From a virus: a DNA stretch of 64,000 nt. Below the pieces are notes generated by a model. That model saw only the letters and a list, made by a program, of their open reading frames with translations. It did no database searches and was not told where the DNA came from. The translations under genes and the position numbers were made by a program. Positions 47,482 to 64,000 of the stretch are shown in pieces. Location of the stretch: IMG/VR virus record IMGVR_UViG_3300032311_001250, positions 14,443 to 78,442 of that record; one strand, 5' to 3'. Position 1 is the first letter of the stretch. Each line of letters begins with the position of its first letter.

Positions 47482-47538
47482 ATGGATAGCTTGTGGTTTT
47501 GGGTTATTTTCTTCCTCGTTTGCGGAGCCATCTTTTAA
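47482..47538 (+). CDS. 18-aa hydrophobic micropeptide
   Basis: RBS AGGAGGG; MDSLWFWVIFFLVCGAIF; TAATG-coupled to next gene. Confidence 0.55.
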   Translation: MDSLWFWVIFFLVCGAIF

Positions 47539-48211: not shown

Positions 48212-48244
48212 TACGGCAGTTGCCGTGTAGTGTAGGAGGAAATT

Positions 48245-48514: not shown

Positions 48515-48582
48515 TTGACAAGTTGCGACCGACCATTTAGTATCGTTAGCACGGCAGTTGCCGTATTGTTGTAGGAGGCAGT

Positions 48583-49397: not shown

Positions 49398-49440
49398 TAT
49401 TGTCGTGCTCCACTTGGAGTGAGGAAGTGTAGGAGGAAGT

Positions 49441-50238
49441 ATGCCAAACTGGTGTGTGAATCAGGTAGACATTAGCGGTGATGAGGCGGAGATTGTCCGG
49501 CTCATTGCGTTGGTGAAGGGTAGCGATAGCGACTTCGACTTCGCCAAGATTGTGCCGCCACCGGATAGCCCTATCTATGCTGCGGCAGAGACGCAGAATG
49601 ACTTCCAGTGCGGCTGTCAGAAGGTTTGGGTTGAGACGAAGCCGCAGGTCGGCGAGTGGGGCGAGGACGGCTTTGAGAAGGCTGAAGGCCATTGGGAAGT
49701 GAACGGCTTACTCATTGAGAAGGAAGTGCTCGACAACGGCACGATTAAGGACTTTGTTGCTGTCGGATTTGGCGGCTCATGGGTCTGCCCGACGCACAAG
49801 CTCGGCGAGATTTCGTCGCACCCAGACTGGTGGTACAACTGGAATGTTGCCAACTGGGGGACGAAGTGGAACTGCGGTGAGGTGTGGAATGACCGCGCCG
49901 ACGACCTTGCTACTGATGGTCGCACCTCGTATAACTTTGAGACGGCGTGGAGTCCTGCGGAGCCTGTGGTTCACGCGCTCTCTGGGCTGTTCCCAACGCT
50001 GACCATTTCGCACCGCTATTGCGAGGGTGGGATGGGGTACGCGGGTGAGGTGATGTATCACTCGGGCAACGAAATCTCACGGCAGGAATACAGCAGCGAG
50101 CACGACTCCCTCCCAGACGAGGCATGGTACAAGGAGGAGGATGGCTCGCGTGGCTATGAACGCAACTATGATACGATTCCAATGACCGCCTTTGAGTCGT
50201 TCTGTGATGAACACTTCGGCGGCGTAGTAGGAGGTTGA
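49441..50238 (+). CDS. DUF1281/YubB ferredoxin-like protein
   Basis: MPNWCVN...FDFAKIVP...WYNWNVANWGTKWN...FETAWSP. Confidence 0.85.
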   Translation: MPNWCVNQVDISGDEAEIVRLIALVKGSDSDFDFAKIVPPPDSPIYAAAETQNDFQCGCQKVWVETKPQVGEWGEDGFEKAEGHWEVNGLLIEKEVLDNGTIKDFVAVGFGGSWVCPTHKLGEISSHPDWWYNWNVANWGTKWNCGEVWNDRADDLATDGRTSYNFETAWSPAEPVVHALSGLFPTLTISHRYCEGGMGYAGEVMYHSGNEISRQEYSSEHDSLPDEAWYKEEDGSRGYERNYDTIPMTAFESFCDEHFGGVVGG

Positions 50239-50591
50239 GTATGAAGCCGGTATACAGCGCATACATTGACGGCAATACGATTGACGAAATCGTGGAGTCG
50301 GGAGAGGGCTTTGTCTACTCCGACATCTATCCGCAGGTTGAGGGGGTCTTCGGTAGGACGGCCTTGTATGAGGCTCTTGCCGGAGCTTCGGACAACCTCG
50401 CCGACGACACGCTCTACATCACCCTTCAGGGCGACCCGTTCGTCAGCCACGAGCGGCACGGACAAATCGTTCTCGGGTGGATTGAGGGAATGCGCGGCGC
50501 GAATGTCAGCATCTTTAGCTACGACGAGCCGGCGAAGGAATACATGGACTATCTTCGCCAGAGCGCGAAAGAAGAAGGAATCTCGGCGTGA
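50235..50591 (+). CDS. Hypothetical protein
   Basis: RBS AGGAGG; operon context. Confidence 0.7.
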   Translation: MSMKPVYSAYIDGNTIDEIVESGEGFVYSDIYPQVEGVFGRTALYEALAGASDNLADDTLYITLQGDPFVSHERHGQIVLGWIEGMRGANVSIFSYDEPAKEYMDYLRQSAKEEGISA

Positions 50592-50639
50592 TTGCCGCTA
50601 TCTATGCGATAGCCCTTGCCGGATGGATTCTGAAGTTTA

Positions 50640-50894
50640 TTAGTTTGGTAGCTCCGAAGGTGCCACCACATCCACCGAAAGATCATCCTCGCCGGGTGCG
50701 ACGAATCCCTCCGGGGTGTTGATCCACCGGACGGCAAACTCGATATCGTCGCTACCCGGCTGACTCTTTTCGGCGTCTAGTCCAATCATCCGTAGGGCCT
50801 CGTTCGGCGTTGTGGCGACATCGTAGAAACCGGCACTCGAGGTGATATGCCAAGTGTCAGGTTTTCCGGGTTTATACACGACGAAATATGTCAT
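50640..50894 (-). CDS. Hypothetical protein, counter-oriented and leaderless
   Basis: GACAAT 6 nt before ATG; no competing long plus-strand ORF. Confidence 0.6.
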   Translation of the reverse strand: MTYFVVYKPGKPDTWHITSSAGFYDVATTPNEALRMIGLDAEKSQPGSDDIEFAVRWINTPEGFVAPGEDDLSVDVVAPSELPN

Positions 50895-51022
50895 GCGAGG
50901 ATTGTCCAACCCCGCACCCCAAGAGGGAATAGCAGCAGATTCTACCGATTGACATGGTACGCCTGTCAGTAGAGTCCTCGTACGAGCTGGGCGTCTCCCA
51001 GTATGGTTCACAGGAGAGAGCA

Positions 51023-51475
51023 ATGGAACGAAACAATCTCATTGCCACCGATTACCTTGGTGGTATGACGCTCCAGTCCGTCGCGGAAAAGTACGGCATT
51101 ACTCGGCAGCGAGTTCAGCAGATCGTCGCAAAGATGGGCGTTAGCCGTCCACCGATTCTGAATAGCACGCGGCTTCGCAAGTACGACTACGACGAGATCG
51201 TGTCTTACTATCGTGAACATTCGCCGACACTTACCGAGATCACGAAGCAGTTCAACTGCTCGACCAGTACGGTCAGGAACGCGCTCTTTAAGGCCGGCCT
51301 TACGACCAACAAGCGCGCGAAGTTCACCACGGATGCCGTACAGGATGTCATCACCCGGTATCGCGCCGGTGAGCGTCTCGTGTTGATTGGTAAGAGCTAC
51401 GATGTCAGCGCGCAGTACATCAACACTGTGCTTCGTCGCGCCGGCGTTCAGCCGGTACGGAGGTCAGTGAAGTGA
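51023..51475 (+). CDS. Triple-HTH DNA-binding protein
   Basis: Three HTH units (TLQSVAEKYGITRQRV; TLTEITKQFNCSTSTV; RLVLIGKSYDVSAQYI). Confidence 0.82.
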   Translation: MERNNLIATDYLGGMTLQSVAEKYGITRQRVQQIVAKMGVSRPPILNSTRLRKYDYDEIVSYYREHSPTLTEITKQFNCSTSTVRNALFKAGLTTNKRAKFTTDAVQDVITRYRAGERLVLIGKSYDVSAQYINTVLRRAGVQPVRRSVK

Positions 51476-51729
51476 GTGATCAGCTGTATACCGAGGACGA
51501 TTACCGGGCGTATGTCCGGTTCCGCAAGGCATTAGAGCGTCATACGGCATACGGCAAGCGCATCCGTCGGTACATCAGGGAGAACCGCGATTTAGTGGAG
51601 CTTTCAGGATGGATTGACTGGGCGTACGAGGAATCACGCAAGCCGCTCGATTATCAGGTTCCGCCCTGGTCAGACGAACAGAAGCTTGCGATGTCCACCC
51701 GGTACGAGGCCAGCAAGGGGCGCGCGTAG
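51472..51729 (+). CDS. Hypothetical protein
   Basis: GTGA overlap. Confidence 0.68.
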   Translation: MSDQLYTEDDYRAYVRFRKALERHTAYGKRIRRYIRENRDLVELSGWIDWAYEESRKPLDYQVPPWSDEQKLAMSTRYEASKGRA

Positions 51730-51805
51730 GGTCTTGACGACTCCGGTAGGGCGGGTGTATGCTCGCTCTGCCGGAGCTTTCCGGTAGGAAGTTGTAGGAG
51801 GAAGT

Positions 51806-52237
51806 ATGGGCTACGACATCTACTCGATGCGCGAGGACAGGGAGAAGTCGCACGCATTTGCGAAGAAGGCGACTCCGTGGGTCTTGGAGGAGAACGGCGA
51901 ACTGCCGGACTATTGGCGCAACACGGCCTATTACCGGATGAACATCTGGGGGATGGGTGTCTTGCGTCAGCTCAATGAGAAGCTTGGCGTAGGTTTTCTC
52001 AATGAGGCCTTGTACGACAACTCCGGTACGGTCATCCGCGACTGGGAGTGCGAGGATGCGTTTGAGGCTTTGTCCAAGAAGGATGACTTGGAGATTCGTG
52101 CTGCCGTGATCGAGGTCGTCAAGGATGAGCCAGAGCTGAACAACGACGAGCAGGTCGGCCTGTGGGTTCAGGAGGTTCGCCATTGGCAGGAATACCTTCG
52201 CATCTGCTCCGAGCTGAAGGGTTGCGAGGTTTTGTGA
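51806..52237 (+). CDS. Hypothetical protein
   Basis: Own promoter TTGACG-N18-TATGCT; MGYDIY...YYRMNIWG. Confidence 0.8.
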   Translation: MGYDIYSMREDREKSHAFAKKATPWVLEENGELPDYWRNTAYYRMNIWGMGVLRQLNEKLGVGFLNEALYDNSGTVIRDWECEDAFEALSKKDDLEIRAAVIEVVKDEPELNNDEQVGLWVQEVRHWQEYLRICSELKGCEVL

Positions 52238-52310
52238 TTCTGGTATTCTGGTGCTTGGTCGGGCTTCTGACCTTGTATGTATTGCGGCTTACGAGCCGGT
52301 AGGAGGCTGT

Positions 52311-52580
52311 ATGGAGGACTTGGTTATCACTTATCACCACGACCCATCGCACGGGTGGCTTGAAGTGAAGCGCGAGCTTGTAGAGATGCTTGGTATTCAG
52401 GGGCTTATCACCTCATACTCGTATCAGAAGGGCGACCGCTTATTCTTGGAGGAGGATGCCGACGCATCATTGCTCGTGCGCTCTCTTGGGGAGCTTGGCA
52501 TCAAGTACACGCTCATTGACCGGCACACCAACGCCGACCATTGGATTCGGGTACTTGACCGCTACAACGCACTAGATTAG
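52311..52580 (+). CDS. Phage hypothetical protein
   Basis: DPSHGWLEV...SYSY...FLEEDADA; RBS AGGAGG. Confidence 0.8.
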   Translation: MEDLVITYHHDPSHGWLEVKRELVEMLGIQGLITSYSYQKGDRLFLEEDADASLLVRSLGELGIKYTLIDRHTNADHWIRVLDRYNALD

Positions 52581-52626
52581 TATTGCTCTGCGGCGCTTGC
52601 CGTGAGGAAGTAGGAAGGAGTACGCA

Positions 52627-53130
52627 ATGGGATACTATGTAAATGGCAATGGTCATCTGGTCATCAAGAAGGAGAATCTTGCTGCGGCCTATGAAGCGTT
52701 GATGGCACTCAACGACGCACCGGACAGCGCGAAGCGCGGCGGGTCGTACAGCGGCGGCAAGCAGCACTCATCGTGGTTCTCGTGGATGCCAGCCGACCTT
52801 CGTGAACTCGCAGACACGAAGGCCGTGTTTGAGGCGTTGGGCTTTGAGACGATGGATGCCAACGGCGACCTCGTGATTACCTGCTACGACAACAAGATCG
52901 GGCAAGAGGAAGTATTCTTTGCCGCTGCTGCTCCGTTCATTGAGAACGGCTCGTATGAGTGGACAGGCGAGGACAGCGCGTTCTGGGAGTGGGAGTTCAT
53001 TGACGGCAAGATGTATCAGCGCGATGGGATTCGTGAGTACGGCGAGGCCGTTGAGGTGAGCGTGCCGGGGCTTCATCGTGAGCAGGTTGAGATGATGGAG
53101 CGCATTGAGGCCTCGTTCGGCAAGAAGTAG
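52627..53130 (+). CDS. Phage hypothetical protein
   Basis: RBS AAGGAG; FSW...YDNK.G.E...APF...W.GED. Confidence 0.8.
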   Translation: MGYYVNGNGHLVIKKENLAAAYEALMALNDAPDSAKRGGSYSGGKQHSSWFSWMPADLRELADTKAVFEALGFETMDANGDLVITCYDNKIGQEEVFFAAAAPFIENGSYEWTGEDSAFWEWEFIDGKMYQRDGIREYGEAVEVSVPGLHREQVEMMERIEASFGKK

Positions 53131-53210
53131 TGCTTGACCCGGCTGCGTCTATCGTTTAGTCTTAGGCGTAGCCGGGTTCGGCTATCTAGCTAGTAGGAGA
53201 GGAGAGGACA

Positions 53211-53411
53211 ATGGAAACGCAATGCGACACCTGTAAGCAGGTCGTAGAGAACGGCTATTGGGCTGATAACAACGCTTCCGGTATCGTTCAGTGGTACTGC
53301 GAGCCGTGCGAGGAACACCGCTCCGAGAAGTATGGCTGCGCGATGCTGCTTTCGGAAGGGGCAACCTGCTACGAGGGCGAGTGTGGCTGCGGCGGAGAGG
53401 GAACTTACTGA
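53211..53411 (+). CDS. Cys-rich microprotein
   Basis: Own promoter; CDTC, YCEPC, CGC. Confidence 0.7.
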   Translation: METQCDTCKQVVENGYWADNNASGIVQWYCEPCEEHRSEKYGCAMLLSEGATCYEGECGCGGEGTY

Positions 53412-53755
53412 TGAGGCCGTACATTGACTTCTGGGATTCGTTAGACGACCTTCTGATGACGATGTTCCGCGACACCGAGGCTTATGTGTATGGGCCAGAA
53501 AAGATTGGTCGGTGGTGCTGTAATACCTGTACCGCAGCGGAGCTTAGTCTGATGGCTGATGCGGACAACATTAGCGATCCGGTATTCTTTTACTATCACG
53601 ACCAGAACCGCGATACCGACTCAGATGAGTGCTATCTGGGGTGGTCTGGTGGGCAGCGTGCACTCGACCTCATCAAGCAGTATTGCGACTACTACGGATT
53701 GGTGGTAGAGTTGCCAGAGAACGAGGACAAAAAGATTCTCGTCAAGGATAACTAG
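53411..53755 (+). CDS. Hypothetical protein (DUF6891-like)
   Basis: WCCNTC...FFYYHDQ...YLGW; TGATG coupling. Confidence 0.72.
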   Translation: MRPYIDFWDSLDDLLMTMFRDTEAYVYGPEKIGRWCCNTCTAAELSLMADADNISDPVFFYYHDQNRDTDSDECYLGWSGGQRALDLIKQYCDYYGLVVELPENEDKKILVKDN

Positions 53756-53763
53756 GAGGACTT

Positions 53764-54258
53764 ATGGCAAAGAGGAAGGCTAATAGCATTGCCGAAACCG
53801 GTATGTGGAACGCCTATGAGTATTCGGTGAAGCGCACCGCACGCAGCAACAAGTCGGCGGTCATCACGAGTCCACGCGACCTTGCGGCTCTGTTCCGCGA
53901 GTTCGCTGACGCGGAGATGAGTGAGGCCTTGTTCGTCGTGTCGTTCGGTGGGCGCAACAACCTGCTTGGGATTCATCGTATCTACTCTGGTACGGCGACC
54001 GGAACTTCGGTGCGGATTGGCGAACTGCTCCGCTCTGCGCTGATGATGGGCGCGGTCGGTATGGCGTTGGTTCACAACCACCCTTCGGGCGACCATCAGC
54101 CGTCTGATGAGGACATTAGGCTCACGGCTGATGTGGCGAAGGCCGCCACGCTGCTTGATGTTCAGTTCCTTGACCATCTGGTCGTCGGAGCGAACGGAGC
54201 GTTCACGAGTATCCGCTCACAGAAGCCGAGTATGTTTGAGGACAGCACCCTGAACTAG
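53764..54258 (+). CDS. radC: RadC-like JAB/MPN domain protein
   Basis: ITSPRD...E.L...VHNHPSGD..PSDEDIRLT...LDHLVVG. Confidence 0.92.
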   Translation: MAKRKANSIAETGMWNAYEYSVKRTARSNKSAVITSPRDLAALFREFADAEMSEALFVVSFGGRNNLLGIHRIYSGTATGTSVRIGELLRSALMMGAVGMALVHNHPSGDHQPSDEDIRLTADVAKAATLLDVQFLDHLVVGANGAFTSIRSQKPSMFEDSTLN

Positions 54259-54263
54259 CTACG

Positions 54264-54338
54264 ACTCGTCGGGGGGTGTCCTCCCCCCCACGAGTCCTAT
54301 CCCCCCGGCGGAGTCCTCCCGCCGGGGGATTTTCTTTG
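54264..54338 (+). terminator. Tandem hairpins ending in an intrinsic terminator
   Basis: GACTCGT-G6/C7-ACGAGTC, then CCCCCGGCGG/CCGCCGGGGG-ATTTTCTTT. Confidence 0.8.
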
Positions 54339-54499
54339 TAGCTCGACTTATTCATTATCCAGGCCGTATACCCCCGCACCCCCATACCCCCAGACCCCCA
54401 TACCGGCTGTTGCCCGGACTTCGAATAGTTAAGATACCTTACACATCTCTTATCCTGAACTTAGTTGACGAGATGATACCGGTGTGAGAAACTCCGTAT

Positions 54500-54931
54500 G
54501 TCGGAGCAATCCTAGGAGAAGCTACCGACTAGGTGAGAGTGTTGGGAACGAAGCACGCAGCCGAAAAATGCGAAGTGGTTCAGGCGAGTGATGGCCTCTA
54601 ATTGCTGCTGTAAATGCGGGAGAGGAAGCTTGGGAAGCGGAAGCCGGGGCAATGATCAAAACCGGTGAAAGCGACCAACCTACCGGAATCTCTGGGAGCG
54701 ACGGCTCTCAGGGGTTCCGGGACATAATGAATCCGTTCCGGGTAGAGGCCGGATAGTTGGTAGATAGACGAACTACCCGCGACGATAAGGATACCGGGCA
54801 TTTGGACTAACCATCAGGGTGGCTGGTATCAGGGGGCAACCGGAAGGCGAAGCTCCTCTCCGCAAGGGGATAAGCGTCAGTAGCGCGATAGCTGGGGGGT
54901 TGAGTCAGATGTGGTGTCTGGCCGACCCCCC
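54500..54931 (+). ncRNA. Candidate large (~430 nt) structured non-coding RNA
   Basis: TTGACG-N17-GAAACT; 5' GUCGG/CCGAC stem; many helices with G-U pairs and GNRA loops; terminal G6/C6 hairpin; no sense ORF. Confidence 0.7.
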
Positions 54932-55011
54932 TTCATACTTGACGACAGGAATCGTTGGGTGTAGTGTTCGTAGTGCCGGTGCTTGCCGGTATGAAAGGAA
55001 GGAGAGGACAG

Positions 55012-55317
55012 ATGGACTTGTTTGAGATTCCGGTTGGCGACCCGCAGGAGAGCACCTGCTCGTGCCGTTGCGGTTGTGAGGTTCCGTTGTCCGGTGGTAC
55101 TTGCGTTGATTGCGGCGAGGGTACGCACCAGAACAACAACGGCCTTGATGAGTTCCGCACTTGCGAGAACGCGAACCGGTGGCCTGAGATGGAACACAAG
55201 GCGGTAGAGCCTCGGCCTTTCCGCTACGGGTGGAACGGCTATGAGAACGCCTATGAGGAGTCGGTGGACTTGTGCGCGGAGTGCTATGAGGCGTGGCAGC
55301 AGGTCGGGTGGAACTAA
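55012..55317 (+). CDS. Cys-rich hypothetical protein
   Basis: Own promoter TTGACG-N17-TAGTGT; CSCRCGC, CVDC, LCAEC. Confidence 0.72.
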   Translation: MDLFEIPVGDPQESTCSCRCGCEVPLSGGTCVDCGEGTHQNNNGLDEFRTCENANRWPEMEHKAVEPRPFRYGWNGYENAYEESVDLCAECYEAWQQVGWN

Positions 55318-55676
55318 TGAGCAGGAACGACGCGGCCTTCTTTACGCCGTATCACGATTGCGACCCGGTGTGGTTCTCCGACGATAAGAGCGTGGTCATT
55401 TACCGCAACGGCGAGATGAGGATTCACTTTACCGAGCCAGACGGCAGCACGAGCGTTCTCCGGTATACGAACGACCTTGACGCGAAGGGGCTTGATACTG
55501 ACGAGAAGCTCGCTGACGCTGAGAAGTCCGGCGCGATTGAGTTCCACAATAATCCGTGGTTCGAGGTCGTCTATCACGACAACGAGGAAGGCGAGGTCTT
55601 TATTGGCCTTGATGAGGCCAAGAGGTACGCCGAAAGGATTGTCGCCAAGTATTCTGAGTGGCAGGAGAAGGTATGA
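55317..55676 (+). CDS. Hypothetical protein
   Basis: TAATG coupling; GEMRI...NNPWFEV. Confidence 0.78.
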   Translation: MSRNDAAFFTPYHDCDPVWFSDDKSVVIYRNGEMRIHFTEPDGSTSVLRYTNDLDAKGLDTDEKLADAEKSGAIEFHNNPWFEVVYHDNEEGEVFIGLDEAKRYAERIVAKYSEWQEKV

Positions 55677-55972
55677 TCGTCTACCGGAGCTTCCCCTCTG
55701 GGGCGTGGGTGGTCAGCGACATCGTAGGTGGGTACTTGACGACCCAGACCTACTATGGGTACACTCGTTCAGAAGCCGTACGGAAGTTCCGTGCGGAAGT
55801 AGGAAGGGAAGGTACAGAGATGAGCCGGAACGCTTGCGCGTGGTGCGGCACCGAGGTTGATGACGAGCGGCAGTACGAGTCGCGCATTTGCGAGGAGTGC
55901 TATCGTGAGGCGTATGAGGCCTCGCAAGAGGAAATCGGAGTAGAGGAGATGAGGAACAATGCGACTCTTTGA
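55673..55972 (+). CDS. Hypothetical protein, possible fusion with internal start at 55820
   Basis: ATGA overlap; YYGYT..EA; C-terminal CAWC/CEEC. Confidence 0.68.
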   Translation: MIVYRSFPSGAWVVSDIVGGYLTTQTYYGYTRSEAVRKFRAEVGREGTEMSRNACAWCGTEVDDERQYESRICEECYREAYEASQEEIGVEEMRNNATL

Positions 55973-56180
55973 TTGGCCGTACAGCGAAACTGATGTGTTG
56001 GACTTCGCGCACGCTCTCGTTCGTGGCGGGTTCAGGTGGCAAGACGATAGCGAGGACAGGCTTCACGCTATCCTTGATGTCGTTGATGAGGCGTACAAGT
56101 GGCGCGTTGAGCTTGACGCTTGGGTGGCTGCCGGTCGCCCAGAATCGTTTGACCTGAACGAGGTCTTGACTCAGGCCTAG
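55959..56180 (+). CDS. Hypothetical protein
   Basis: RBS GAGGA; operon context. Confidence 0.68.
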   Translation: MRLFDWPYSETDVLDFAHALVRGGFRWQDDSEDRLHAILDVVDEAYKWRVELDAWVAAGRPESFDLNEVLTQA

Positions 56181-56237
56181 CGTCGGGTGTAGTCTGGCGT
56201 AGCCGGCACTTGCCGGTATGGAAGGAAGGAGTATCTG

Positions 56238-56480
56238 ATGAGCCGTGATGTGAACGAGATGATGGAGCTTCCCTTTGAGAAGTTCATTGAGGCCGTATCG
56301 CGCAAGGTTGAGGTGAAGGTTGGCCTCTCGGCTGATGACCTGCCCGACATTGCGTTTGACGACTTCTACCCCGGAGAGCGCGCTACCTTCGGCGACTATA
56401 AGAGCGCGATTGCGGAGTGCGCGGTCTACCTCTTGGAGTCAGCAGGGTATCCGCTTGATGAGGAGAACGATAATGCGTAG
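56238..56480 (+). CDS. Hypothetical protein
   Basis: Own promoter TTGACT-N18-TAGTCT; GLSADDLPD. Confidence 0.78.
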   Translation: MSRDVNEMMELPFEKFIEAVSRKVEVKVGLSADDLPDIAFDDFYPGERATFGDYKSAIAECAVYLLESAGYPLDEENDNA

Positions 56481-56646
56481 TTTGATTACGAAGGCCGAAT
56501 ACCTGCGCGAAACTGAGGCGTGGGTTCGGCAGCAGCGACGCGAGCAACTGCTCCGTCGCGCATTGTATCTTGCGGCACTTGCGGCATTGGTCGCGGTTCT
56601 GCTAGGCTGGCCTTGTACCGACGCGATGTGCGCGCCGGCAGGTTGA
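56473..56646 (+). CDS. Small membrane protein
   Basis: RBS GAGGAG; TM segment. Confidence 0.62.
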   Translation: MRSLITKAEYLRETEAWVRQQRREQLLRRALYLAALAALVAVLLGWPCTDAMCAPAG

Positions 56647-56661
56647 GAGAGGAGAGGACAA

Positions 56662-56943
56662 ATGGCACTTACAGGAACAGAGCAGTACGAGATTCAGGAA
56701 GCCGGATACCTTCGGATTGACCTTGACTCTGAGTCGTGGGTCGCGCTGATGAGTGAGGACAATGTGAACTTCGGCGGTACGCTGTGGAAGCTTGACCTTG
56801 ACGGCTACCACTACTCGCAGGGTTGTACCGCCGGCTATCCGGTACTCGGTCGTGATGATGACGCTGAGGCTATCGCGCGCCATCTTGCCGACTTCATCTT
56901 GATGGAGAACGGAGAGGAAGGCCGTTTCGTGCGCCCCGAATAA
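56662..56943 (+). CDS. Hypothetical protein
   Basis: RBS GAGGAGAGG; followed by terminator. Confidence 0.75.
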   Translation: MALTGTEQYEIQEAGYLRIDLDSESWVALMSEDNVNFGGTLWKLDLDGYHYSQGCTAGYPVLGRDDDAEAIARHLADFILMENGEEGRFVRPE

Positions 56944-57182
56944 TACGCCGGCGATCCTTTCCGCCGGTCTAACACCCCCTCGCAGCCGGGCATCTGTGAG
57001 GGGGTCTTTCTTTGGGTCATTTATCAGGCCGTACCTGTACCAGACCCCCAACCCCCCACGCCCCCAGCTACACGCTCGACTTGGACAGGCCGGCCTTAGG
57101 GGGGGTGTTGACTTCCGGCGTGGGTCGTGTATTCTCTCTGGTGTCGGGGCTTCCCGATGTAGCACAGGAAAGGAAGGAACCA

Positions 57183-57578
57183 ATGGGTAAGGCGGTACTG
57201 ATTAGCGTGGACGTTGCCGGTCGCGGCAAGGTCGAGGTCGTGGATTGGCAGGACAAGCCCGGCCTCTCGGAGCATTACGCGGCGATTGAGTGCGACCTCG
57301 TGGAGATTGCCGGCGTTGGTAAGTTCGGCGGCGTTCCGGTGGTGGTGTTCGTTGATGAGGAAGGGCTGCTCCGCAATGAGGTGCTGCTCAACCTGACGGC
57401 GTGCGACTTTCTCGCTGAGGCCACCAAGAGCGCGCCGGCGTACCTGATGGGTGGCGGCCTTGTTGGTCGTGCGCTTGTCCTGTTTGATGGGGGCAGCGAT
57501 TCGCGCGGCTTCTCTGACGCGGAAATGGTCAAGGTGAGCGCGCAGCTCGCAGCGGGGGGCTATCCCGTCGCGCATTGA
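57183..57578 (+). CDS. DUF3846-like protein (cassette)
   Basis: IECDLVE...VDEEGLL...N..A...LVG. Confidence 0.8.
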   Translation: MGKAVLISVDVAGRGKVEVVDWQDKPGLSEHYAAIECDLVEIAGVGKFGGVPVVVFVDEEGLLRNEVLLNLTACDFLAEATKSAPAYLMGGGLVGRALVLFDGGSDSRGFSDAEMVKVSAQLAAGGYPVAH

Positions 57579-57839
57579 CCTCTCCGGTTTTTCTCTGAGG
57601 CCGTCGGTGATCTGTGCCACCGGCGGCCTCTCCTTTTGTCGCTGTTTTTATCCGGTCATTATTAGTTCATTATTCAGGCCGTACCTGTACCGGCAACCCC
57701 TTACCCCACACCCCACGAGCGACATCTCACCCGCTACCGGTTGCGCTCTCCGCAACGGCGTTTGACTTCTGGCGCGGTAGGCCTTACCTTGTATCTGTTG
57801 CCACTTGGCAACGGCACAGGCACAGGAAGGAAGGAACAA

Positions 57840-58307
57840 ATGGACAACGCAACCGACTTGACCACTCCGGCGCAGAAGTGGGTTCAGAAGTACCTCGGCA
57901 ACCAGTCGCAGGGTGTCTGCCCCGCTTGCCGCCAGACGCTTCCGGCTGACGCGGCCTATCGCGTCTATGTTCGCTACGGCGACGGCGACGACCTTATCGC
58001 TTATGTGCCAACCTACGGCACCGCTCTTGCGGTTCTGATTGGTTGGGCTGACGACGAGCGCGGCGGCTCCTTCTGGGCGTACTATGAGGGTAGCGACTGG
58101 AAGACTATGACTCCGGCACAGGCGGCTACCTTTGCTGATAGTCCGGTCGAGTTCTCCAACTTCGTAGACGCTATGGGCGGCGAAACTTCGGCTATCGGTG
58201 CCGAGGTCTTTGAGGCCGTTGAGTCTGCGCTTTTGGATACGCCGCTGATTGGTGCGGTGTGGATTGACTCACTCCACAATCCGGTGATGCCGAGCGATTA
58301 CCGCTAG
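57840..58307 (+). CDS. Hypothetical protein (cassette)
   Basis: Own promoter, RBS and terminator; CPAC. Confidence 0.78.
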   Translation: MDNATDLTTPAQKWVQKYLGNQSQGVCPACRQTLPADAAYRVYVRYGDGDDLIAYVPTYGTALAVLIGWADDERGGSFWAYYEGSDWKTMTPAQAATFADSPVEFSNFVDAMGGETSAIGAEVFEAVESALLDTPLIGAVWIDSLHNPVMPSDYR

Positions 58308-58578
58308 GCCTCTCCGGTTCGGCTCCGAGGCCGTCGCCCCCATCTGTGCGGGGGTGGCGGCCTCTCCCTTTGTCCGGTAGAGCTCGCCACGGGCAACATT
58401 TCAGGCGGCCTATTACTGCGCGTTTATACCGCCCCCATACCCCACACCCCACACCCCACACCCCAGACTCGCCTACCGGCTGCGTTGCGTCTGGCGCGTC
58501 GCGGTTGCGTTCTGTCGTAGGGTCGGCTACTATCTACTCGTCGGCACTTGCCGATGAAGTAGTAGGGAGAAGGAACCT

Positions 58579-59070
58579 ATGACGGAACCAAAGGGGATGT
58601 CGTACGAGAAGGCCGTAGAAGCGGCGAGGAAGTCCGGCGGCAAGGTCGTCGTGCTGATGGCGTGGAGCGCGCCGACCACCAAGAAGCAGTTTGAGGAGCG
58701 CGCCAAGAAGGCCGCTGCTCGTGCTGCCACCCACCGCGCACTTGGTCGCGTTCAGACCACGGGCGAGCAGGTGGTTGATGAGAAGGGGCGCGTGTCGTTC
58801 CTGTTCCGCGTGGCCGGTCAGGTGAATCGTGATGTCCACCCTCTCGGTGTGTACCTCACCAAGAAGGGTGAGCCGTGCGTCAATCTGGTGCTGTCGGCTC
58901 CGACCGAGTACGGCTGGACTACGGCGTGCGAGTACGCCGGAGTTCCGGGTAGCGCGTGCGAGCGTCGCGCTGCGTTCCACGGCCACCGCGAGGTGAACCT
59001 CACCCGCCTTGTGTCGTGGATGATTGGCGGCGAGGAGCAGGTTGAGGAGCGGCCTCTCGGCGGCTGCTAG
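58579..59070 (+). CDS. Hypothetical protein (cassette), paralog of 62595-63059
   Basis: Collinear similarity over the whole length. Confidence 0.85.
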   Translation: MTEPKGMSYEKAVEAARKSGGKVVVLMAWSAPTTKKQFEERAKKAAARAATHRALGRVQTTGEQVVDEKGRVSFLFRVAGQVNRDVHPLGVYLTKKGEPCVNLVLSAPTEYGWTTACEYAGVPGSACERRAAFHGHREVNLTRLVSWMIGGEEQVEERPLGGC

Positions 59071-59395
59071 TCGCTCGCTCCGGCTCCGAGGCCGTCATCC
59101 CGTCGGGGGTGGCGGCCTCATCATTTCGTCAGAGCTTTTCACGGGCAACATTTCACCCCCCACACCCCCACACCCCCACACCCCCACCAATAGTTCAGGC
59201 CTCATTCATCATTCACTCATTACTCATTCACTCCTCACTCATTCCCCCCGCACCCCCACGAACTAACTAACTAACTAACTGACTGGCCGCTCGGTCGTCG
59301 TTCGGTTGGTGGCCTGTTGCGCTGTTGCCTACGCCCCGGTAAACTTGGGGTGTTCGGTGGCAATGCTCCACCGACGAGCACAGAGGAGACCAACA

Positions 59396-59779
59396 ATGGC
59401 CAAGAGTAATGAGAAGGCTACCCTCTCGGTAGTTCTCGGAGATGAGCAGGAAGGCGAGCGCAGCGGTTCGCTTTGGCAGCGGTCGGTGGTCGTTCGCCGG
59501 GATTCGGGCAATGGCGAGGTGATCCGCTATGAGGCCATCCTCTACGGTATGGCTGCGCCTGTGAACGAGGTTCATCTCTGGCAGGGTGGCGACGCCGCCC
59601 CGCTCCTCGGCGTTCTCCCTCTCGACTTCTGGGAGTGGACGACTGATGCCGAACTGATGGAGTGGGTGGCCTCGTGCTATCAGCAGAGCAGCGCGCGCTA
59701 TGAGCGCACTATCCGCAAGATGCGGACGATGGCGCGCAAGGCGTACACCGAGCAGAACGAGGAAGCCGCTCCCTTCTGA
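59396..59779 (+). CDS. Hypothetical protein (cassette)
   Basis: Promoter TTGCGC-N17-TAAACT; RBS GAGGAG. Confidence 0.78.
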   Translation: MAKSNEKATLSVVLGDEQEGERSGSLWQRSVVVRRDSGNGEVIRYEAILYGMAAPVNEVHLWQGGDAAPLLGVLPLDFWEWTTDAELMEWVASCYQQSSARYERTIRKMRTMARKAYTEQNEEAAPF

Positions 59780-59802
59780 ACGCTACCGGCGAACGGGCAA
59801 CA

Positions 59803-59836
59803 AGGCCTCACCCCTTCGGGGGTGGGGTCTTTTTGT
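59803..59836 (+). terminator. cUUCGg intrinsic terminator (similar ones near 60517, 61205, 62120, 63082)
   Basis: GC stem with CTTCGG loop and T tract after each cassette gene. Confidence 0.85.
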
Positions 59837-60180
59837 TGGTGCTATTCATCAGGCTATTATTCACCCCGTACCCCAGACCCCACACCCCAGACCCCAAGAA
59901 CTAGGCCACTCCGTCCGTCGTTCCATTCGGTCGCAGCTCGACGCTCGCCGGGATTCGGTCAGCGTCATTCATCATTCACCAGTTCATCATTCACTCATTC
60001 ATCATTCATTCATCATTACCCCTTACCCCACACCCCACGAACTACTTCTCTCTACTCTCTCTTCTCTCTCTCTTCTCTCTCCCTTCTCTCTCCTCTATGG
60101 TTCGGACTTGCGCTGACCGCGACCGGCCGCGTATACTTCGGGTGCCGGCAGTTGCCGGTGGCACAGAGAGGAGAAGACAG

Positions 60181-60492
60181 ATGACGGACACGGAGAAGAC
60201 GCTCTGGCTGGTCGAGGTGGTCTGGGAGAACGAGACGCACCGCTCGTGGCACGCTGGCCGGTCAGAGGCAACGGCAGCCCTGATTGCGCTGGCTTCGGAG
60301 TTGGCGGCGTACAACGCCGACACCGCCGACGATGCGCGGGAGTTCCTGCTCGATGACGAGCGTTCAGCCTGGGTTGATTGCACCGAGACGACGACCTCGG
60401 GCGTTTGCCCTAAGTGCGACGCGATGGCTGGCTGGACTGGCTCCTATTGCGAGCCGTGCGGCTACGAGTTCGGGGAGAGCCTCGACGACTAG
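60181..60492 (+). CDS. Hypothetical protein with C-terminal Zn ribbon (cassette)
   Basis: Promoter TTGCGC-N18-TATACT; CPKC...CEPCG. Confidence 0.78.
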   Translation: MTDTEKTLWLVEVVWENETHRSWHAGRSEATAALIALASELAAYNADTADDAREFLLDDERSAWVDCTETTTSGVCPKCDAMAGWTGSYCEPCGYEFGESLDD

Positions 60493-60821
60493 CCGCTGAC
60501 CGCTACCGGCCGCAATGAAGCCCTGCCCCTTCGGGGGTGGGGCTTCTTGTTGCCCGTAAACCGGCTCAGGGGCAATGGTTCGCGTCGCGCTGCGCGCTCT
60601 TGGTTGTGGCCGGTCGCGGTCATCATTCATTAGTCCAACATCATCAGTCATCATTCATCATTCATTACCCCACACCCCATTACCCCTAGCCCCAAGAGCT
60701 AACAAACTAAAGAATAGATTCCTGGACTCGGTCAGCATTCGCTTGCGCTGTTGCCCACTACCGGCTACACTCAACTCCTCGGACGCTATGCTCGGCCGAG
60801 TAGCACAGAAAGGGGAACGCT

Positions 60822-61178
60822 ATGTGGCGTTTCTTGGTCTTCGTACCTAAGCCCGACACCGGTAGCGGTCAGCGGGTCAATCTGGCGAGTGGGTGGTCGT
60901 ATGACGAAACCGAGGCCGACACCTTTGGTGATGTGATGCCCACCCTGCGCGGAATGATTCAGGCGGTCTACGCCGTCATTGAGATTGACTCGGTTCGTGA
61001 GTTCGGCCCTGAGTCCGACTCCGAGGAACCCGCTCCTGCTTGGGCTGTTGAGGTGATGACCGAGGCCGGGGTTGCTGGCCTGAACGGCTCGTGGGTTGAG
61101 TTGGACGGAAAGCCGTTGGCCTTCGTCGTAGCCGTAGAGGAGCCACGGAAGGTCTGGCCGACACACTTTGAGAGGTAG
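60822..61178 (+). CDS. Hypothetical protein (cassette)
   Basis: Promoter TTGCGC-N17-TACACT; RBS AAGGGG. Confidence 0.75.
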   Translation: MWRFLVFVPKPDTGSGQRVNLASGWSYDETEADTFGDVMPTLRGMIQAVYAVIEIDSVREFGPESDSEEPAPAWAVEVMTEAGVAGLNGSWVELDGKPLAFVVAVEEPRKVWPTHFER

Positions 61179-61610
61179 TCCTCTCCGGCTGAGGGCAACT
61201 GAGGCCACCCTCACCCTTCGGGGTGGGGGTGGTTTCTTTATGGCCTCACTCATCACCCCTTACCCCTTACCCCTCAGGCCTTACCCCGTACCCCTTACCC
61301 CACAAACTTCTAGGTGTTCTGGTATAGGCCTACTCGTTTCCGTGCCTCTCCGTCGTTCCTACGGGGTCGTTTCTCATGTAGCTTTGAGAATCTCAGCACC
61401 GGTAGCGGTCATCATTCATCAGTTCTCATTCATCAGGTCATCATTATCAGGCCATTACTTCGGGCGTACCCCTAGCCCCACGGACTACGACTTCATATGT
61501 GGTTCGGTCGTTGCGTCTGGTGCGTCGGGCTTGACGCTGCCCATGTCTCGATGTACTCTCTCGGTGTTGGGGTTGTCGGCACAGACCCGCCCTGACGAAA
61601 GGAGCGCCCT

Positions 61611-62096
61611 ATGGATAGGGAGAAGAACCAGCAGCGGCTCGTCGAGGTACGGGCAGCAATCGCAGCGGTCAATGAGTCGCTGACCGCTGAGGAGTTCGGT
61701 GATGCGGCACAGATGAACAGCGAGATGGGCGGCAATGCTCACCTCGTCGTGGTGCCAGCGGCGTTCTGGAATGACCATGTGTATCGCGACTGCGATTTGG
61801 ACTCGGTCGAGGTGCGGTCATCGGCTGCCGATTGGAGCAACGACGACGGCTCCTATGTCGTCTTGGTGATGACCGACGACTTCCTGATGGAGTTGGTCTC
61901 TGACGCTGCCCACTACTCGAACGGCTGGGGTGAGGACTACGAGCCCCTGATGGAGTCGGCACGCCGCGCCATCGTGGCGCTCTGGGAGCAGAAGCCCGCC
62001 ATCATGAAGGCTGACGCTGACGCTCGGGCGAGCCGCGACAATCTCCGCTGGTCGCTCGGCATTCAGCGCGATGATGTGGCGGTGATCACGGGCTAA
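61611..62096 (+). CDS. Hypothetical protein (cassette)
   Basis: Promoter TTGACG-N17-TACTCT; FWNDH..RD...ELVSDA.HY. Confidence 0.8.
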   Translation: MDREKNQQRLVEVRAAIAAVNESLTAEEFGDAAQMNSEMGGNAHLVVVPAAFWNDHVYRDCDLDSVEVRSSAADWSNDDGSYVVLVMTDDFLMELVSDAAHYSNGWGEDYEPLMESARRAIVALWEQKPAIMKADADARASRDNLRWSLGIQRDDVAVITG

Positions 62097-62594
62097 CCTT
62101 CGTCGAGCCTCGGGCAACAGGAACCCGCTCCCCTTCGGGGGGGCGGGTTTCTTGTTGGGTTGTGTCTGGTCATCGTGAAGGCCTTCACCCCTGACCCCGA
62201 ACGCTGACCGTTCATCGACATCATCACTATTGGTTCACTCATCATTCATCATCTACCCCTTACCCCTTACCCCTCACCCCACCATTTACCCCTTACCCCA
62301 CGAACTAGGACTCGTTCTCCGGCAAGAGTCAACCTTCGGGCTGCTCTGTCGAGACTCGGTCAATGAGCGCGGAGCTTCTTTTTCAGCCCTCATTCATCAT
62401 TCATCATCATTCATCATTCATCATCATCATTACCCCTCACCCCACGAACAAAGGGCCAAAGGCGGGCAATGTCGATGCGCGGGCAGCGTTGCGTCTGGCG
62501 GTTCGGGCTTGCGCTCTGGCTTCGGTGGGTGTATCTTTCTGGTGTCGGGAGCACAGAGGAAGCCACTAGGCGACCGCCCGACAGGGAGAACCAA

Positions 62595-63059
62595 ATGGGT
62601 ATGACCTACGAGGAAGCTCTGGAAGCCGCCAAGAAGTCCGCAGGGAAGGTGGTTGTCCTGACCTACTGGACTAAGCCGGCTACTGAGGCGGAGCGCACGC
62701 GCCGCATTGCCTCTGCCTCGATGCGACAGGCGGAGCACAAGGCTCTCGGTCGCGTCAAGACCGAGGCGGTCGCTGAGTCGGGTTCGGTACTGGTTCGCGT
62801 GGCTGGGCAGATCAACCGCGACGAGCACGCTCTCGGTGTCTGGGTCAATAAGAAGGGCGAGCCTTCGCTCTCGCTCGTCATCTCCGCGCCGACGGAGTAC
62901 GGCTACACGACCGCTTGCGCCTACGCTGGGAAGGCTGGGAGTGCGTGCGAGAATCGTCGTCCGTTCCACGCTCATCGTGGCGTGAACCTGACGCGGCTCG
63001 TGTCGTGGCTCATCGCAGGAGAGGAGCAGGTCAAGGCGGAGCCGCAGCTCGGCTGCTAG
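62595..63059 (+). CDS. Hypothetical protein (cassette), paralog of 58579-59070
   Basis: Promoter TTGCGC-N17-TATCTT; shared SAPTEYG.TTAC.YAG..GSACE.R..FH.HR.VNLTRLVSW. Confidence 0.85.
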   Translation: MGMTYEEALEAAKKSAGKVVVLTYWTKPATEAERTRRIASASMRQAEHKALGRVKTEAVAESGSVLVRVAGQINRDEHALGVWVNKKGEPSLSLVISAPTEYGYTTACAYAGKAGSACENRRPFHAHRGVNLTRLVSWLIAGEEQVKAEPQLGC

Positions 63060-63395
63060 TCGGTAGCCTTCGGGCGCAAGAATCCCGCTCCCCTTCGGGG
63101 GGCGGGTTTTTTGTTGGTTGCCTTTGTCTCGATTTTTCTGATTCACCCCTTCACCCCTTCACCCCTTACCCCACGGATTCACTCACTCATCACTCATTCA
63201 TCATTCACCTATTCACTCATTCATCATTCACTCGCTACCCCTGACCCCACGAACTAATGGGTAGGTAGGCACCGGTTGTGGGCAGCGTTCGGGGTCGGCC
63301 TCGCCTGAGCTTCCCTCTTGACTCCTGCCGTGGTTGCGGTATTCTCTATGTGTCGGGGGCAGGCACAGACCCGAACCGACGAAGGGAGAAACAAG

Positions 63396-63617
63396 ATGAA
63401 CAAGGCAGCAAAGGCTCTGATGGTGGCAATCATCGCCCTCGGTGCGCTGATCCTCGGCGCAGCGTTCGGCTATGACGGCGGGTTCGGCGTAGTGGTCGGC
63501 GGCACCGGATTTTGGGTGAGCCCAGGTATGGCGATCATCGGCGGGTTCGCGGGCTTCGGGCTCTTCGTGGCGGCGTGGATCGTAGGCGAGGAGATCGGGC
63601 TCTACCTGAGCAAGTAA
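63396..63617 (+). CDS. Small two-TM membrane protein (cassette)
   Basis: Promoter TTGACT-N16-TATTCT; hydrophobic. Confidence 0.75.
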   Translation: MNKAAKALMVAIIALGALILGAAFGYDGGFGVVVGGTGFWVSPGMAIIGGFAGFGLFVAAWIVGEEIGLYLSK

Positions 63618-63928
63618 ACCACAAGCCGCCCCGCCGTAGGGGCTGCCCCGCCTGAGCTAGTCGGCTCGGGCGGGGCTTCTCTTTGCCCCAACCCTGCTGC
63701 CCGTTCATCGACATGGCCGGGCGGGGTCAGCGCTGCGCAAACTTCAACATTTCACCAGATCCCCTCAACCCCTCTTCCTGTAAACAACAGCGAAGGGCAA
63801 TGCCTGGCCTGGATTTTTTTAAAAATACCCAAATCTTTCCATCACTCTCTTATTCAATACTTCCTTCACTCTATCCCTCTATCACTCCCGGGCGTGACTC
63901 CGGAGGTGACTCGGGATCACGCACAACG

Positions 63929-64000
63929 TGGCTCCGGAGGTAGGGCTCGAACCTACGACCAGGCGATTAACAGTCGCCCGCTCTACCACTGAGCTACTCC
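63929..64000 (-). tRNA. trnN: tRNA-Asn(GTT), about 3 nt of the 5' end lie beyond the window
   Basis: GGAGTAGCTCAGTGGTAGAGC-GGGCGA-CTGTTAA-TCGCC-TGGTC-GTAGG-TTCGAGC-CCTAC-CTCCGGAGCCA. Confidence 0.95.

What the first reader, a model, noticed from the sequence alone, without database searches (positions are those of the whole stretch)
54340..63690. Array of self-contained single-gene cassettes joined by a conserved multi-part spacer: candidate gene-shuffling or insulation system
Seen: from 57 kb on, every gene has the same grammar. It runs promoter, 5' hairpin, GCACAG, SD, ORF, GC-rich terminator (mostly cUUCGg), then a 250-500 bp spacer with G-poor (TCAT/TCAC)n, (NNACCCC)n and an ACGAACTA-like end (clean copies near 59258, 60037, 62300, 63249; variants near 57715, 59896, 60694, 61480, 62444). 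Several spacers carry the module twice. One gene is present as two diverged copies. A large share of this region is non-coding, whereas the rest of the genome is tightly packed. Established: promoter/stem-loop repeats (PeSLs) mediate modular shuffling in T4-type phages, and integron cassettes use attC sites, but neither uses this low-complexity module. Inference: the spacers are recombination or protein-binding sites for acquiring and rearranging early genes, or transcriptional insulators.
Basis: partly seen in the sequence, partly recalled or inferred. Interest (0 to 1): 0.85.

Follow-up and report, generated by a model that had tools for sequence, protein, structure and literature searches.

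The report
Shuffled phage gene cassettes, G-free linkers
An uncultured long-tailed phage keeps nine small unknown genes as self-contained promoter-to-terminator units, and related phages have reordered, copied, lost and swapped them; the odd G-free repeats between units are under selection and probably keep transcription of one unit out of the next.

Summary
Window 56.9-63.7 kb holds nine single-gene units. Each has a sigma-70-like promoter, a hairpin at the RNA 5' end, a GCACAG box (8 of 9), a strong ribosome site, an orphan ORF and a terminator. The units are 239-498 nt apart, and 46% of the array is non-coding. The spacers carry (TCATTCA)n then (NNACCCC)n tracts on the coding strand only: 189 modules to 0 across 25 related loci.

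The shuffling idea is supported as an evolutionary pattern. Related lineages carry the same cassettes in different orders and copy numbers. Homology of moved cassettes stops at the -35 box and at the terminator end. Unrelated ORFs also occupy the same promoter-terminator frame.

The linkers are not neutral. Changes towards G are about half as frequent as in other spacer DNA (p = 2e-4), while other changes run at the normal rate.

By composition every linker is a top-ranked C>G bubble, is little structured and cannot start translation. My best reading (about 0.4) is a Rho-loading backstop and insulator. Recombination would then be a by-product of the repeated regulatory ends, as with T4 PeSLs. 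No integrase or attC-like site was found.

This scan has already noted this phage family on other DNA, and several other PeSL-like arrays. I class it as a new variant of a known kind.

The parts
54259..54410 (+). radC terminator followed by the first C-tract module (54371-54399)
56944..57182 (+). Spacer op2>U1: terminator 56974-57010, module about 57012-57075, promoter 57108-57135, leader hairpin and GCACAG
57183..57578 (+). U1 ORF (131 aa; weak DUF3846, below the Pfam cut-off). The G001 allele is only 56% identical, inside flanks that are about 95-100% identical
57579..57839 (+). Spacer U1>U2: terminator, module 57655-57725, promoter 57762, hairpin, two GCACAG boxes
57840..58307 (+). U2 ORF (155 aa, orphan)
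58308..58578 (+). Spacer U2>U3: terminator, module 58432-58464, TTGCGT-N16-TTGCGT promoter region, hairpin; no GCACAG
58579..59070 (+). U3 ORF (163 aa), P family, paralogue of U8
59071..59395 (+). Spacer U3>U4: terminator, C-tract 59156-59185, TCAT tract 59200-59249, CCCCACGAACTA + (AACT)n, promoter 59317
59396..59779 (+). U4 ORF (127 aa). This cassette is absent in the G005/G006/G007 lineages and sits elsewhere in L230/L235/G009
59780..60180 (+). Spacer U4>U5: terminator, module 1 (59864-59895), linker, module 2 (59965-60038), 55-nt (TC)n tract, promoter 60108. It holds the strongest C>G bubble of the genome
60181..60492 (+). U5 ORF (103 aa, C-terminal zinc-ribbon-like)
60493..60821 (+). Spacer U5>U6: terminator, module 60619-60694, promoter 60743
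60822..61178 (+). U6 ORF (118 aa, orphan)
61179..61610 (+). Spacer U6>U7: terminator, modules 61244-61305 and 61405-61490 joined by a conserved linker with a vestigial-looking hairpin (61348-61366), promoter 61531
61611..62096 (+). U7 ORF (161 aa). The G001 allele is 62% identical (dS 0.72), inside flanks that are 82-100% identical
62097..62594 (+). Spacer U7>U8: terminator, modules 62225-62310 and 62385-62455, promoter 62509
62595..63059 (+). U8 ORF (154 aa), second P-family copy
63060..63395 (+). Spacer U8>U9: terminator, C-tract 63146-63172, TCAT tract 63177-63233, second C-tract with CCCCACGAACTA, promoter 63318
63396..63617 (+). U9 ORF (73 aa, hydrophobic, Gly-rich)
63618..63928 (+). U9 terminator (63645-63676), a weak module and a 77-nt G-free tract (63813-63889) facing the convergent tRNA gene
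63929..64000 (-). tRNA-Asn, cut by the end of the record. It is phage-borne: in the complete relative G001 more phage DNA and a second tRNA-like sequence (read by eye) follow it

Best explanation
This is the hyperplastic accessory or early-gene region of a family of uncultured siphophages. The host is unproven, possibly Chloroflexota.

Each gene is an autonomous cassette that runs from the -35 box to the end of its intrinsic terminator. It comprises a host-type promoter, a hairpin at the RNA 5' end, a GCACAG box, a strong ribosome site and an orphan ORF. Over evolutionary time whole cassettes have been reordered, duplicated, lost and replaced. ORFs alone have also been exchanged inside shared promoter/terminator frames.

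Between cassettes lie strand-specific, G-avoiding, weakly structured C/T-rich linkers. They grew by slippage from a conserved core (T-run, CAGGC, YTATTA, C4-5-ATA-C4-5).

Inferred mechanism: the terminators have broken U-tracts and leak. A read-through RNA then exposes an untranslatable, unstructured, YC-rich stretch of 60-130 nt on which termination factor Rho loads, stopping RNA polymerase before the next promoter. This insulation makes each cassette work wherever it lands.

The shuffling itself is most simply explained by general homologous or microhomology recombination between the similar promoters, terminators and repeat linkers, as with T4 PeSLs. A dedicated recombinase is not needed.

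What is shown: the anatomy, the strand bias, the selection against G and the cassette rearrangements with their boundaries (about 0.9 for this part). What is inferred: the role of Rho (about 0.4) and the recombination pathway.
For: Cassette behaviour.
- Orders differ among lineages. This phage has U1 U2 P U4 U5 U6 U7 P U9. L230/L231 have U1 U2 P U6 U5 U7 U4 P. L234/L235 have U1 P U2 U7 P U6 U5 U4 P U9. G006 has P U1 U2 P U5 U6 U7 x14 P.
- Homology of moved cassettes ends at the -35 box and at the terminator end. U4 is 92% identical, from 79 nt upstream (the -35 box is at 79) to +59 (the terminator ends at +66). U5 gives 77 vs 73 and +63 vs +65. U7 gives 80 vs 80.
- The U4 indel against G006 has both breakpoints inside the linkers.
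- ORF-only swaps occur. U1 and U7 are 56-62% identical (dS 0.7-1.4) inside flanks of 82-100% (about 95-100% for U1). The unrelated ORFs x14 and U4 sit in one frame in L233 vs L235.

Linkers.
- 189 modules lie on the coding strand and 0 on the other, across 25 loci.
- In this genome they occur only inside the array, each following a terminator.
- Every spacer is a + strand C>G bubble of 112-295 nt with area 1800-7200. The published bar at which all tested templates terminated is 78 nt or 700 (PMC6144790).
- The cores fold less than random genome pieces in 8 of 9 cases.
- Changes towards G are 25 of 136 in modules against 206 of 594 in other spacer DNA (odds ratio 0.42, p = 2e-4), while non-G rates are equal.
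- Sequence is not conserved between lineages, but composition and order are.

Context. The two MAGs that carry the closest TerL relatives both encode Rho. Rho is known to reinforce weak intrinsic terminators (PMC12360218).
Against: - No transcript data, no Rho assay and no known host. The C>G criteria come from E. coli and Salmonella.
- A strongly predicted terminator-like hairpin outside the array (about 10.2 kb before the window start, roughly 50 nt after the capsid ORF) has no such module, so this is not a general terminator accessory.
- In the L233 lineage the module is a fairly defined composite motif that contains Gs. That looks more like a specific binding site.
- The fixed 5'-to-3' order (TCAT-rich, then C-tracts) is not predicted by Rho biology.
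- An unrelated phage (L118) carries similar heptamer arrays with the G-rich strand as the coding strand.
- The sharp loss of homology exactly at the cassette edges could also mean that the linkers themselves are the exchange sites.
Confidence: 0.45

Rival explanations
1. The modules are arrays of binding sites for a specific protein that reads single-stranded RNA or DNA, or double-stranded DNA. Candidates are a phage repressor acting like the one-way 'stoperators' of Cluster A mycobacteriophages, or the multi-copy P-family protein of the array itself.
For: The L233 lineage has a defined unit: T6-7, CAGGC, CTATTA, TCCCCC(C)ATACCCCC. ATA is the commonest spacer between C-runs across the family (84 cases; the next is 40). 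The order of the two sub-modules is fixed, and the orientation is strictly one-way. A 7-8 nt period suits proteins that bind single strands. The P-family model is a small Sm-like barrel, with Hfq, WYL and YaeO as nearest structural neighbours.
Against: Aligned on the first C-run, no position upstream carries much information. Sequences differ freely between lineages and only G is avoided. No repressor or integrase was recognised. The structural matches (Z 7.3 or less) lie within the tool's stated noise range, and there is no sequence link.
Confidence: 0.2
2. The linkers have no function. They are microsatellites that grew by replication slippage in tolerant non-coding DNA, and recombination at repeated promoters and terminators explains the shuffling.
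For: Differences between the close relatives G000 and G001 are mostly gains and losses of whole repeat units: 7, 9, 11, 14 and 59 nt. Repeat units differ between lineages.
Against: Slippage does not predict a 189:0 strand bias. It does not predict a module after every terminator of the array in every lineage. It does not predict the selective deficit of changes towards G at normal overall rates. Nor does it predict that 46% non-coding DNA is kept in an otherwise compact phage.
Confidence: 0.12
3. The modules act as non-B DNA. The G-runs on the template strand form G-quadruplexes (with i-motifs on the other strand), which block RNA polymerase or absorb supercoils between strongly transcribed units.
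For: Many modules are G4-N3-G4 repeats on the template strand. One spacer has a 55-nt polypyrimidine mirror tract.
Against: Only 72 of 202 modules have the four or more runs that an intramolecular quadruplex needs. The TCAT half is also G-free but cannot take part.
Confidence: 0.1
4. The modules are dedicated sites of a site-specific, integron-like cassette capture and excision system.
For: Cassette boundaries are sharp and lie at the module edges. Cassettes are gained, lost and moved.
Against: No integrase or recombinase was recognised in the ORFs scanned. The modules have no inverted repeat and, being G-free, cannot fold like attC. Every cassette has its own promoter. Crossovers also occur at the ATG and the stop codon. 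The longest exact matches between spacers are only 16-23 nt.
Confidence: 0.07

Closest known systems
PeSLs (promoter-early stem-loop cassettes) in hyperplastic regions of T4-type phages (PMC2839356, PMC4122927)
   Same: [quoted passage not shown] Insertions, deletions and replacements between relatives are bounded by these regulatory motifs. Transcriptional isolation makes the units portable, and no dedicated recombinase is known.
   Different: The host phage is a siphovirus with a 3534-aa tape measure, not a T4-like myovirus. The promoter and terminator are 100-350 nt apart rather than fused in one compact motif. The gap is filled by strand-specific G-free heptamer linkers that PeSLs lack. 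Mini-circles were not tested.
Rho-utilisation (rut) sites / C>G bubbles (PMC6144790; review PMC12360218)
   Same: Long uninterrupted C>G skew on the non-template strand, many YC dimers, little structure, no translation, and a position after a leaky terminator.
   Different: Natural rut sites are not tandem heptamer repeats and have no fixed two-part order. Rho dependence was not tested here, and the host is unknown.
Morons of temperate phages (own knowledge: Juhala et al. 2000; discussed in PMC2839356)
   Same: Single genes carrying their own promoter and terminator.
   Different: Morons are scattered single insertions without conserved flanks. Here nine or more units form one array with a common grammar. 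No sign of lysogeny was found.
SPO1 host-takeover module (PMC10531801; own knowledge: Stewart et al. 1998)
   Same: A block of about two dozen small early genes of unknown ancestry, organised in many short transcription units.
   Different: No low-complexity linkers are described there. The timing and function of the present genes are unknown.
Stoperators of Cluster A mycobacteriophages (own knowledge)
   Same: Many asymmetric intergenic sites, all oriented with transcription.
   Different: Stoperators are one conserved 13-bp sequence bound by the immunity repressor. Here the sequence drifts and no repressor was found.

Membership tests
PeSL-type shuffling cassettes | Repeated sigma-70-like early promoter plus stem-loop terminator flanking orphan genes in a variable region | tested here: met
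   Promoter and leader are kept in five lineages. Terminators number 19 against 8.5 in shuffles. The ORFs have no match above a curated cut-off in Pfam; PHROGs gave U1 one unannotated family and nothing of known function.
PeSL-type shuffling cassettes | Insertions, deletions and replacements between relatives bounded by the regulatory motifs | tested here: met
PeSL-type shuffling cassettes | Circular excision products (mini-circles) | not testable with these tools
   This needs reads or inverse PCR.
PeSL-type shuffling cassettes | T4-type myovirus background and a compact fused promoter/stem-loop motif | tested here: not met
   The giant ORF matches tape-measure families, not T4 proteins. The terminator and the next promoter are separated by 97-348 nt linkers.
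Integron | attC-type imperfect inverted repeat at each cassette end | tested here: not met
   The modules are G-free direct repeats that fold weakly.
Integron | Promoterless cassettes behind one common promoter, plus an IntI integrase | tested here: not met
   Every cassette has its own promoter. No integrase was seen in the ORFs scanned; about 10% of this genome is missing from the record.
Rho-utilisation site | Uninterrupted C>G bubble of about 78 nt or more on the non-template strand | tested here: met
   All array spacers: 112-295 nt, peaks of 27-50%, among the highest of the genome.
Rho-utilisation site | Unstructured, untranslated, YC-rich RNA | tested here: met
   MFE per nt is -0.13 to -0.26, against -0.29 to -0.33 for random pieces, in 8 of 9 cores. 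There are 21-80 YC dimers per core. G-free tracts cannot hold ATG, GTG or TTG.
Rho-utilisation site | The host has Rho, and termination depends on it | not testable with these tools
   Rho is present in the two MAGs with the closest TerL.
Stoperator-like repressor sites | One conserved asymmetric sequence bound by a phage repressor | tested here: inconclusive
   One-way orientation is met. A defined motif appears only in the L233 lineage, and information content across the family is low. No repressor was identified.

The most novel reading that the evidence does not exclude
The linkers and the array's own multi-copy P-family protein form one control circuit. Rho loads on every linker and keeps the cassettes monocistronic. 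The P protein is a small Sm-like barrel whose nearest structural neighbour is YaeO/Rof, a Rho inhibitor. It would then bind Rho, or the C-rich linker RNA, and switch the array to read-through expression. That would be a phage-encoded, cis-plus-trans Rho switch of a kind not described so far.
Probability: 0.06. Interest if true: 0.8.

Novelty: new variant of a known kind. Interest (0 to 1): 0.5.

Why it matters
It extends PeSL-style modular shuffling from T4-type phages to an unrelated family of uncultured siphophages. The unit of exchange is unusually clear: it runs from the -35 box to the terminator end.

It also shows that the DNA between cassettes is under a simple, measurable constraint, no G on the sense strand. 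If these linkers are Rho-loading insulators, they would be compact natural insulator parts. They would also explain how phages can drop new genes into an array without disturbing the neighbours.

Tried and rejected
- N4-like hairpin promoters for a virion RNA polymerase. The 3534-aa ORF matches tape-measure families instead.
- Prophage end at a tRNA. The complete relative G001 continues past the tRNA and closes on itself with a 123-bp repeat.
- Cyanobacterial STRR/HIP1 repeats. There are no HIP1 sites.
- A host-wide repeat. (ACCCCNN)3 is absent from the two MAGs with the closest TerL.
- Known RNA families. Nothing apart from the tRNA reached a gathering score. The weak C/D-box hits on the minus strand of the TCAT tracts are low-complexity look-alikes.
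- Sequestration of the next ribosome site by the module in read-through RNA. Seen in only 3 of 9 units.
- Trans pairing of the upstream 430-nt structured RNA with leaders or modules. z was between -1.4 and +1.6 for 15 of 16 targets.
- Quadruplex as the general property. Only 72 of 202 modules qualify.
- Function of the cassette proteins. Pfam and PHROGs give nothing above cut-off. For the P family, Foldseek gives nothing, a PDB profile search gives nothing, and the VIA matches are Z 7.3 or less.
- Host. The P family was not found in 301 genomes of the class of the Anaerolinea MAG. One P homologue sits in a MAG labelled Proteobacteria. There was no match in the phage GenBank set.
- My own terminator scan was too noisy to use beyond a few strong sites.
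It was redone from references.

Full report
**What the record is.** The window is the last 64 kb of a 78,442-bp IMG/VR virus record. A 3534-aa ORF matches tape-measure families. A prohead protease, an SU10-type capsid protein, a terminase and tail-fibre repeats are also present. It is therefore a long-tailed siphophage, not an N4-like phage as the giant ORF first suggested.

A complete relative, G001, is 85,707 bp long with a 123-bp end repeat. It is 86-89% identical and collinear here, and it continues past the tRNA-Asn that ends our record. The tRNA is therefore phage-borne, and about 9 kb is missing from our record.

The closest terminase relatives (58% and 50%) lie in MAGs of Anaerolinea sp. 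and Candidatus Limnocylindrales. That is the only host clue. The P-family gene of the array was not found in 301 genomes of that class.

**Anatomy.** From 56.9 to 63.7 kb there are nine single-gene units. Each has these parts:
- TTGxxx-N16-18-TAxxxT, 73-86 nt before the ATG;
- a leader of 43-57 nt that starts with a hairpin;
- GCACAG (8 of 9 units) and a purine-rich ribosome site;
- an ORF of 73-163 aa with no match above a curated Pfam cut-off and no PHROG family of known function;
- a GC-rich terminator with a broken U-tract.

Two base pairs of the U2 hairpin and two of the U5 hairpin change in a compensatory way across lineages.

The promoter-plus-hairpin grammar also runs through the denser upstream early region (46.8-56.7 kb). 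There it appears without GCACAG, terminators or long spacers. The array proper is thus a distinct class of unit.

Spacers are 239-498 nt, and 46% of the array is non-coding. Each spacer is compositionally segmented:
- an A-free terminator;
- a G-free (TCATTCA)n tract, then (NNACCCC)n;
- in this lineage, ACGAACTA;
- an A-free stretch that holds the -35 box, preceded in three units by a second TTGCGT 22 nt upstream;
- a T-free leader.

**Is it more than chance?** Yes.
- Of the 15 G-free runs of 28 nt or more on the + strand of the whole genome, 12 lie in 58.4-63.9 kb.
- (ACCCCNN)3 occurs 11 times forward and never in reverse, always in the array.
- In five related genomes, 67 C-tract modules lie on the coding strand and none on the other.
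- In 25 partly overlapping loci the count is 189 to 0.

**Relatives and shuffling.** Motif scans and a search with a P-family alignment brought in more than 20 related IMG/VR contigs. The P family has 50 clusters at 90% identity in metagenomes.

The upstream region stays largely collinear. The order of the array cassettes differs:

| Lineage | Cassette order |
|---|---|
| this phage and G001 | U1 U2 P U4 U5 U6 U7 P U9 |
| L230/L231 | U1 U2 P U6 U5 U7 U4 P |
| L234/L235 | U1 P U2 U7 P U6 U5 U4 P U9 |
| G006 | P U1 U2 P U5 U6 U7 x14 P |
| G009 | U1 P U2 U5 x P . U7 U4 |

The P gene is present in two or three diverged copies.

Where a cassette has moved, homology to ours begins at the -35 box and ends at the terminator:
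- U4 is 92% identical from 79 nt upstream (the -35 box is at 79) to +59 (the terminator ends at +66).
- U5 gives 77 vs 73 upstream and +63 vs +65 downstream.
- U7 gives 80 vs 80 upstream.

The U4 indel against G006 has both breakpoints inside the low-complexity linkers.

A second kind of exchange affects the ORF alone. Between this phage and G001, U1 and U7 are only 56-62% identical, with dS of 0.7-1.4. Their flanks are 82-100% identical (about 95-100% for U1), and the change is sharp at the ATG and after the stop. Between L233 and L235, two unrelated ORFs (x14 and U4) sit in the same promoter/leader and terminator frame. Overall, spacers are 92-94% identical between the two close relatives and coding DNA is 84%.

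Exchange is not confined to the low-complexity module.

**What constrains the linkers.** Their sequence is not conserved between lineages. G006 uses CCCCTTT/CCCCTAT units. G009 has GGTCATYATCAC and GCTATTA before the C-runs. L233 has a defined unit: T6-7, CAGGC, CTATTA, TCCCCC(C)ATACCCCC. ATA is the commonest spacer between C-runs.

What is kept is the order (T/A-rich, then C-runs), the strand and the lack of G. In three close genome pairs, changes towards G make up 25 of 136 substitutions in modules. In other spacer DNA they make up 206 of 594 (odds ratio 0.42, p = 2e-4). Per site, the rate towards G is 0.017 against 0.037, while the non-G rate is 0.076 against 0.069. Against all other DNA the contrast is stronger (p = 1e-14). 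Differences between close relatives are mostly gains or losses of whole repeat units. The tracts thus grow by slippage but are filtered against G.

**Mechanism.** The features point to a reader of single-stranded nucleic acid, most simply RNA:
- one strand only;
- always after a terminator and before the next promoter;
- a constraint on composition rather than sequence;
- a 7-8 nt period that would not keep sites on one face of a duplex.

By the published criteria for Rho-dependent terminators, every spacer is a C>G bubble of 112-295 nt with area 1800-7200 and peaks of 27-50%, among the highest values in the genome. All tested templates with bubbles over 78 nt or area over 700 terminated (PMC6144790). 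The cores fold less than random genome pieces in 8 of 9 cases and hold 21-80 YC dimers. G-free RNA can hold neither a start codon nor a ribosome site.

[quoted passage not shown] Both MAGs with the closest terminase encode Rho.

I put this reading at about 0.4. Several points count against it:
- no expression data exist;
- a strongly predicted terminator-like hairpin just after the capsid ORF, outside the array, has no module;
- the L233 unit looks like a specific site;
- the two-part order is unexplained.

Rivals and their weights are given in the Rival explanations section.

**How it compares.** It works like the PeSL cassettes of T4-type phages. It is not a member of that group: the phage type is different, and promoter and terminator are separated by long linkers that PeSLs lack. 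It fails the integron tests: no attC-like fold, every cassette has its own promoter, and no integrase was seen.

Notes from this scan show that the same phage family was already seen on other DNA, where it was read as TGA/TGAA linkers on the opposite strand. They also list several other PeSL-like arrays in unrelated phages.

**Leads that failed.** These are listed under Tried and rejected. They include the idea, borrowed from another finding of the scan, that the structured RNA just upstream (54.5-54.9 kb) pairs with the leaders or linkers.

The P-family model (pLDDT 77.8) is a small Sm-like barrel. Its nearest neighbours are YaeO/Rof (Z 7.3, rmsd 2.5, 69 residues) and Hfq (Z 6.5-7.0). Such scores lie within the tool's stated background. 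This is a lead only.

Noticed in passing
window 54420-54935: A stretch of about 430 nt with its own promoter and no ORF lies between radC and the first operon. It is 72-100% identical to G001 in 40-nt windows (most at or above 90%). It has no Rfam match and contains one ACGAACTA. It shows no special complementarity to the array leaders or linkers.
   Followed up: partly
window 44283-44714 (-) and 51023-51475 (+): Two phage proteins carry sigma-70 region-4-type helix-turn-helix domains: one a region 3/4 fragment, the other with two Sigma70_r4-matching stretches. Three array promoters have a second TTGCGT 22 nt upstream of the -35 TTGCGY/TTGACG. These proteins may bind -35-like boxes.
   Followed up: partly
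window 58579-59070 and 62595-63059; alignment A2: The P family is present in two or three diverged copies per array and has 50 clusters in metagenomes. Two Cys and two His are invariant or nearly so (C117, C127, H134, H136). The predicted fold is a small Sm-like barrel whose weak nearest neighbours are YaeO/Rof and Hfq.
   Followed up: partly
L118 6800-8420; L146/L148/L190; L120; L182: Unrelated viral contigs, mostly high-GC (one, L182, is 42% GC), carry (ACCCCTG)n or (ACCCCTA)n heptamer arrays in intergenic DNA. In L118 they are paired with (GAATGCT)n. L118 has the G-rich strand as the coding strand. In the L146 phage they sit directly between a stop codon and the next start, and TGA falls in all three frames.
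   Followed up: no
window 46829-56700: The upstream early genes use the same promoter and 5' hairpin grammar, but with GTAGGAGG-type leaders, no GCACAG, no terminators and almost no spacers. This is a second class of unit.
   Followed up: partly
window 61305-61405 (also G006 7350-7440): The piece that joins the two modules of a double spacer is conserved between lineages and holds a terminator-like hairpin (61348-61366). It may be the remnant of a lost cassette.
   Followed up: no
window 57183-57578: U1 weakly matches DUF3846 (E = 5e-5, below the cut-off) and one PHROG family of unknown function.
   Followed up: no
L012 / G001 1-5186: Beyond the tRNA-Asn the complete relative appears, from reading the sequence by eye (no tRNA or ORF tool was run on it), to carry a second tRNA-like sequence and further genes on the minus strand. 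These would be transcribed towards the array.
   Followed up: no
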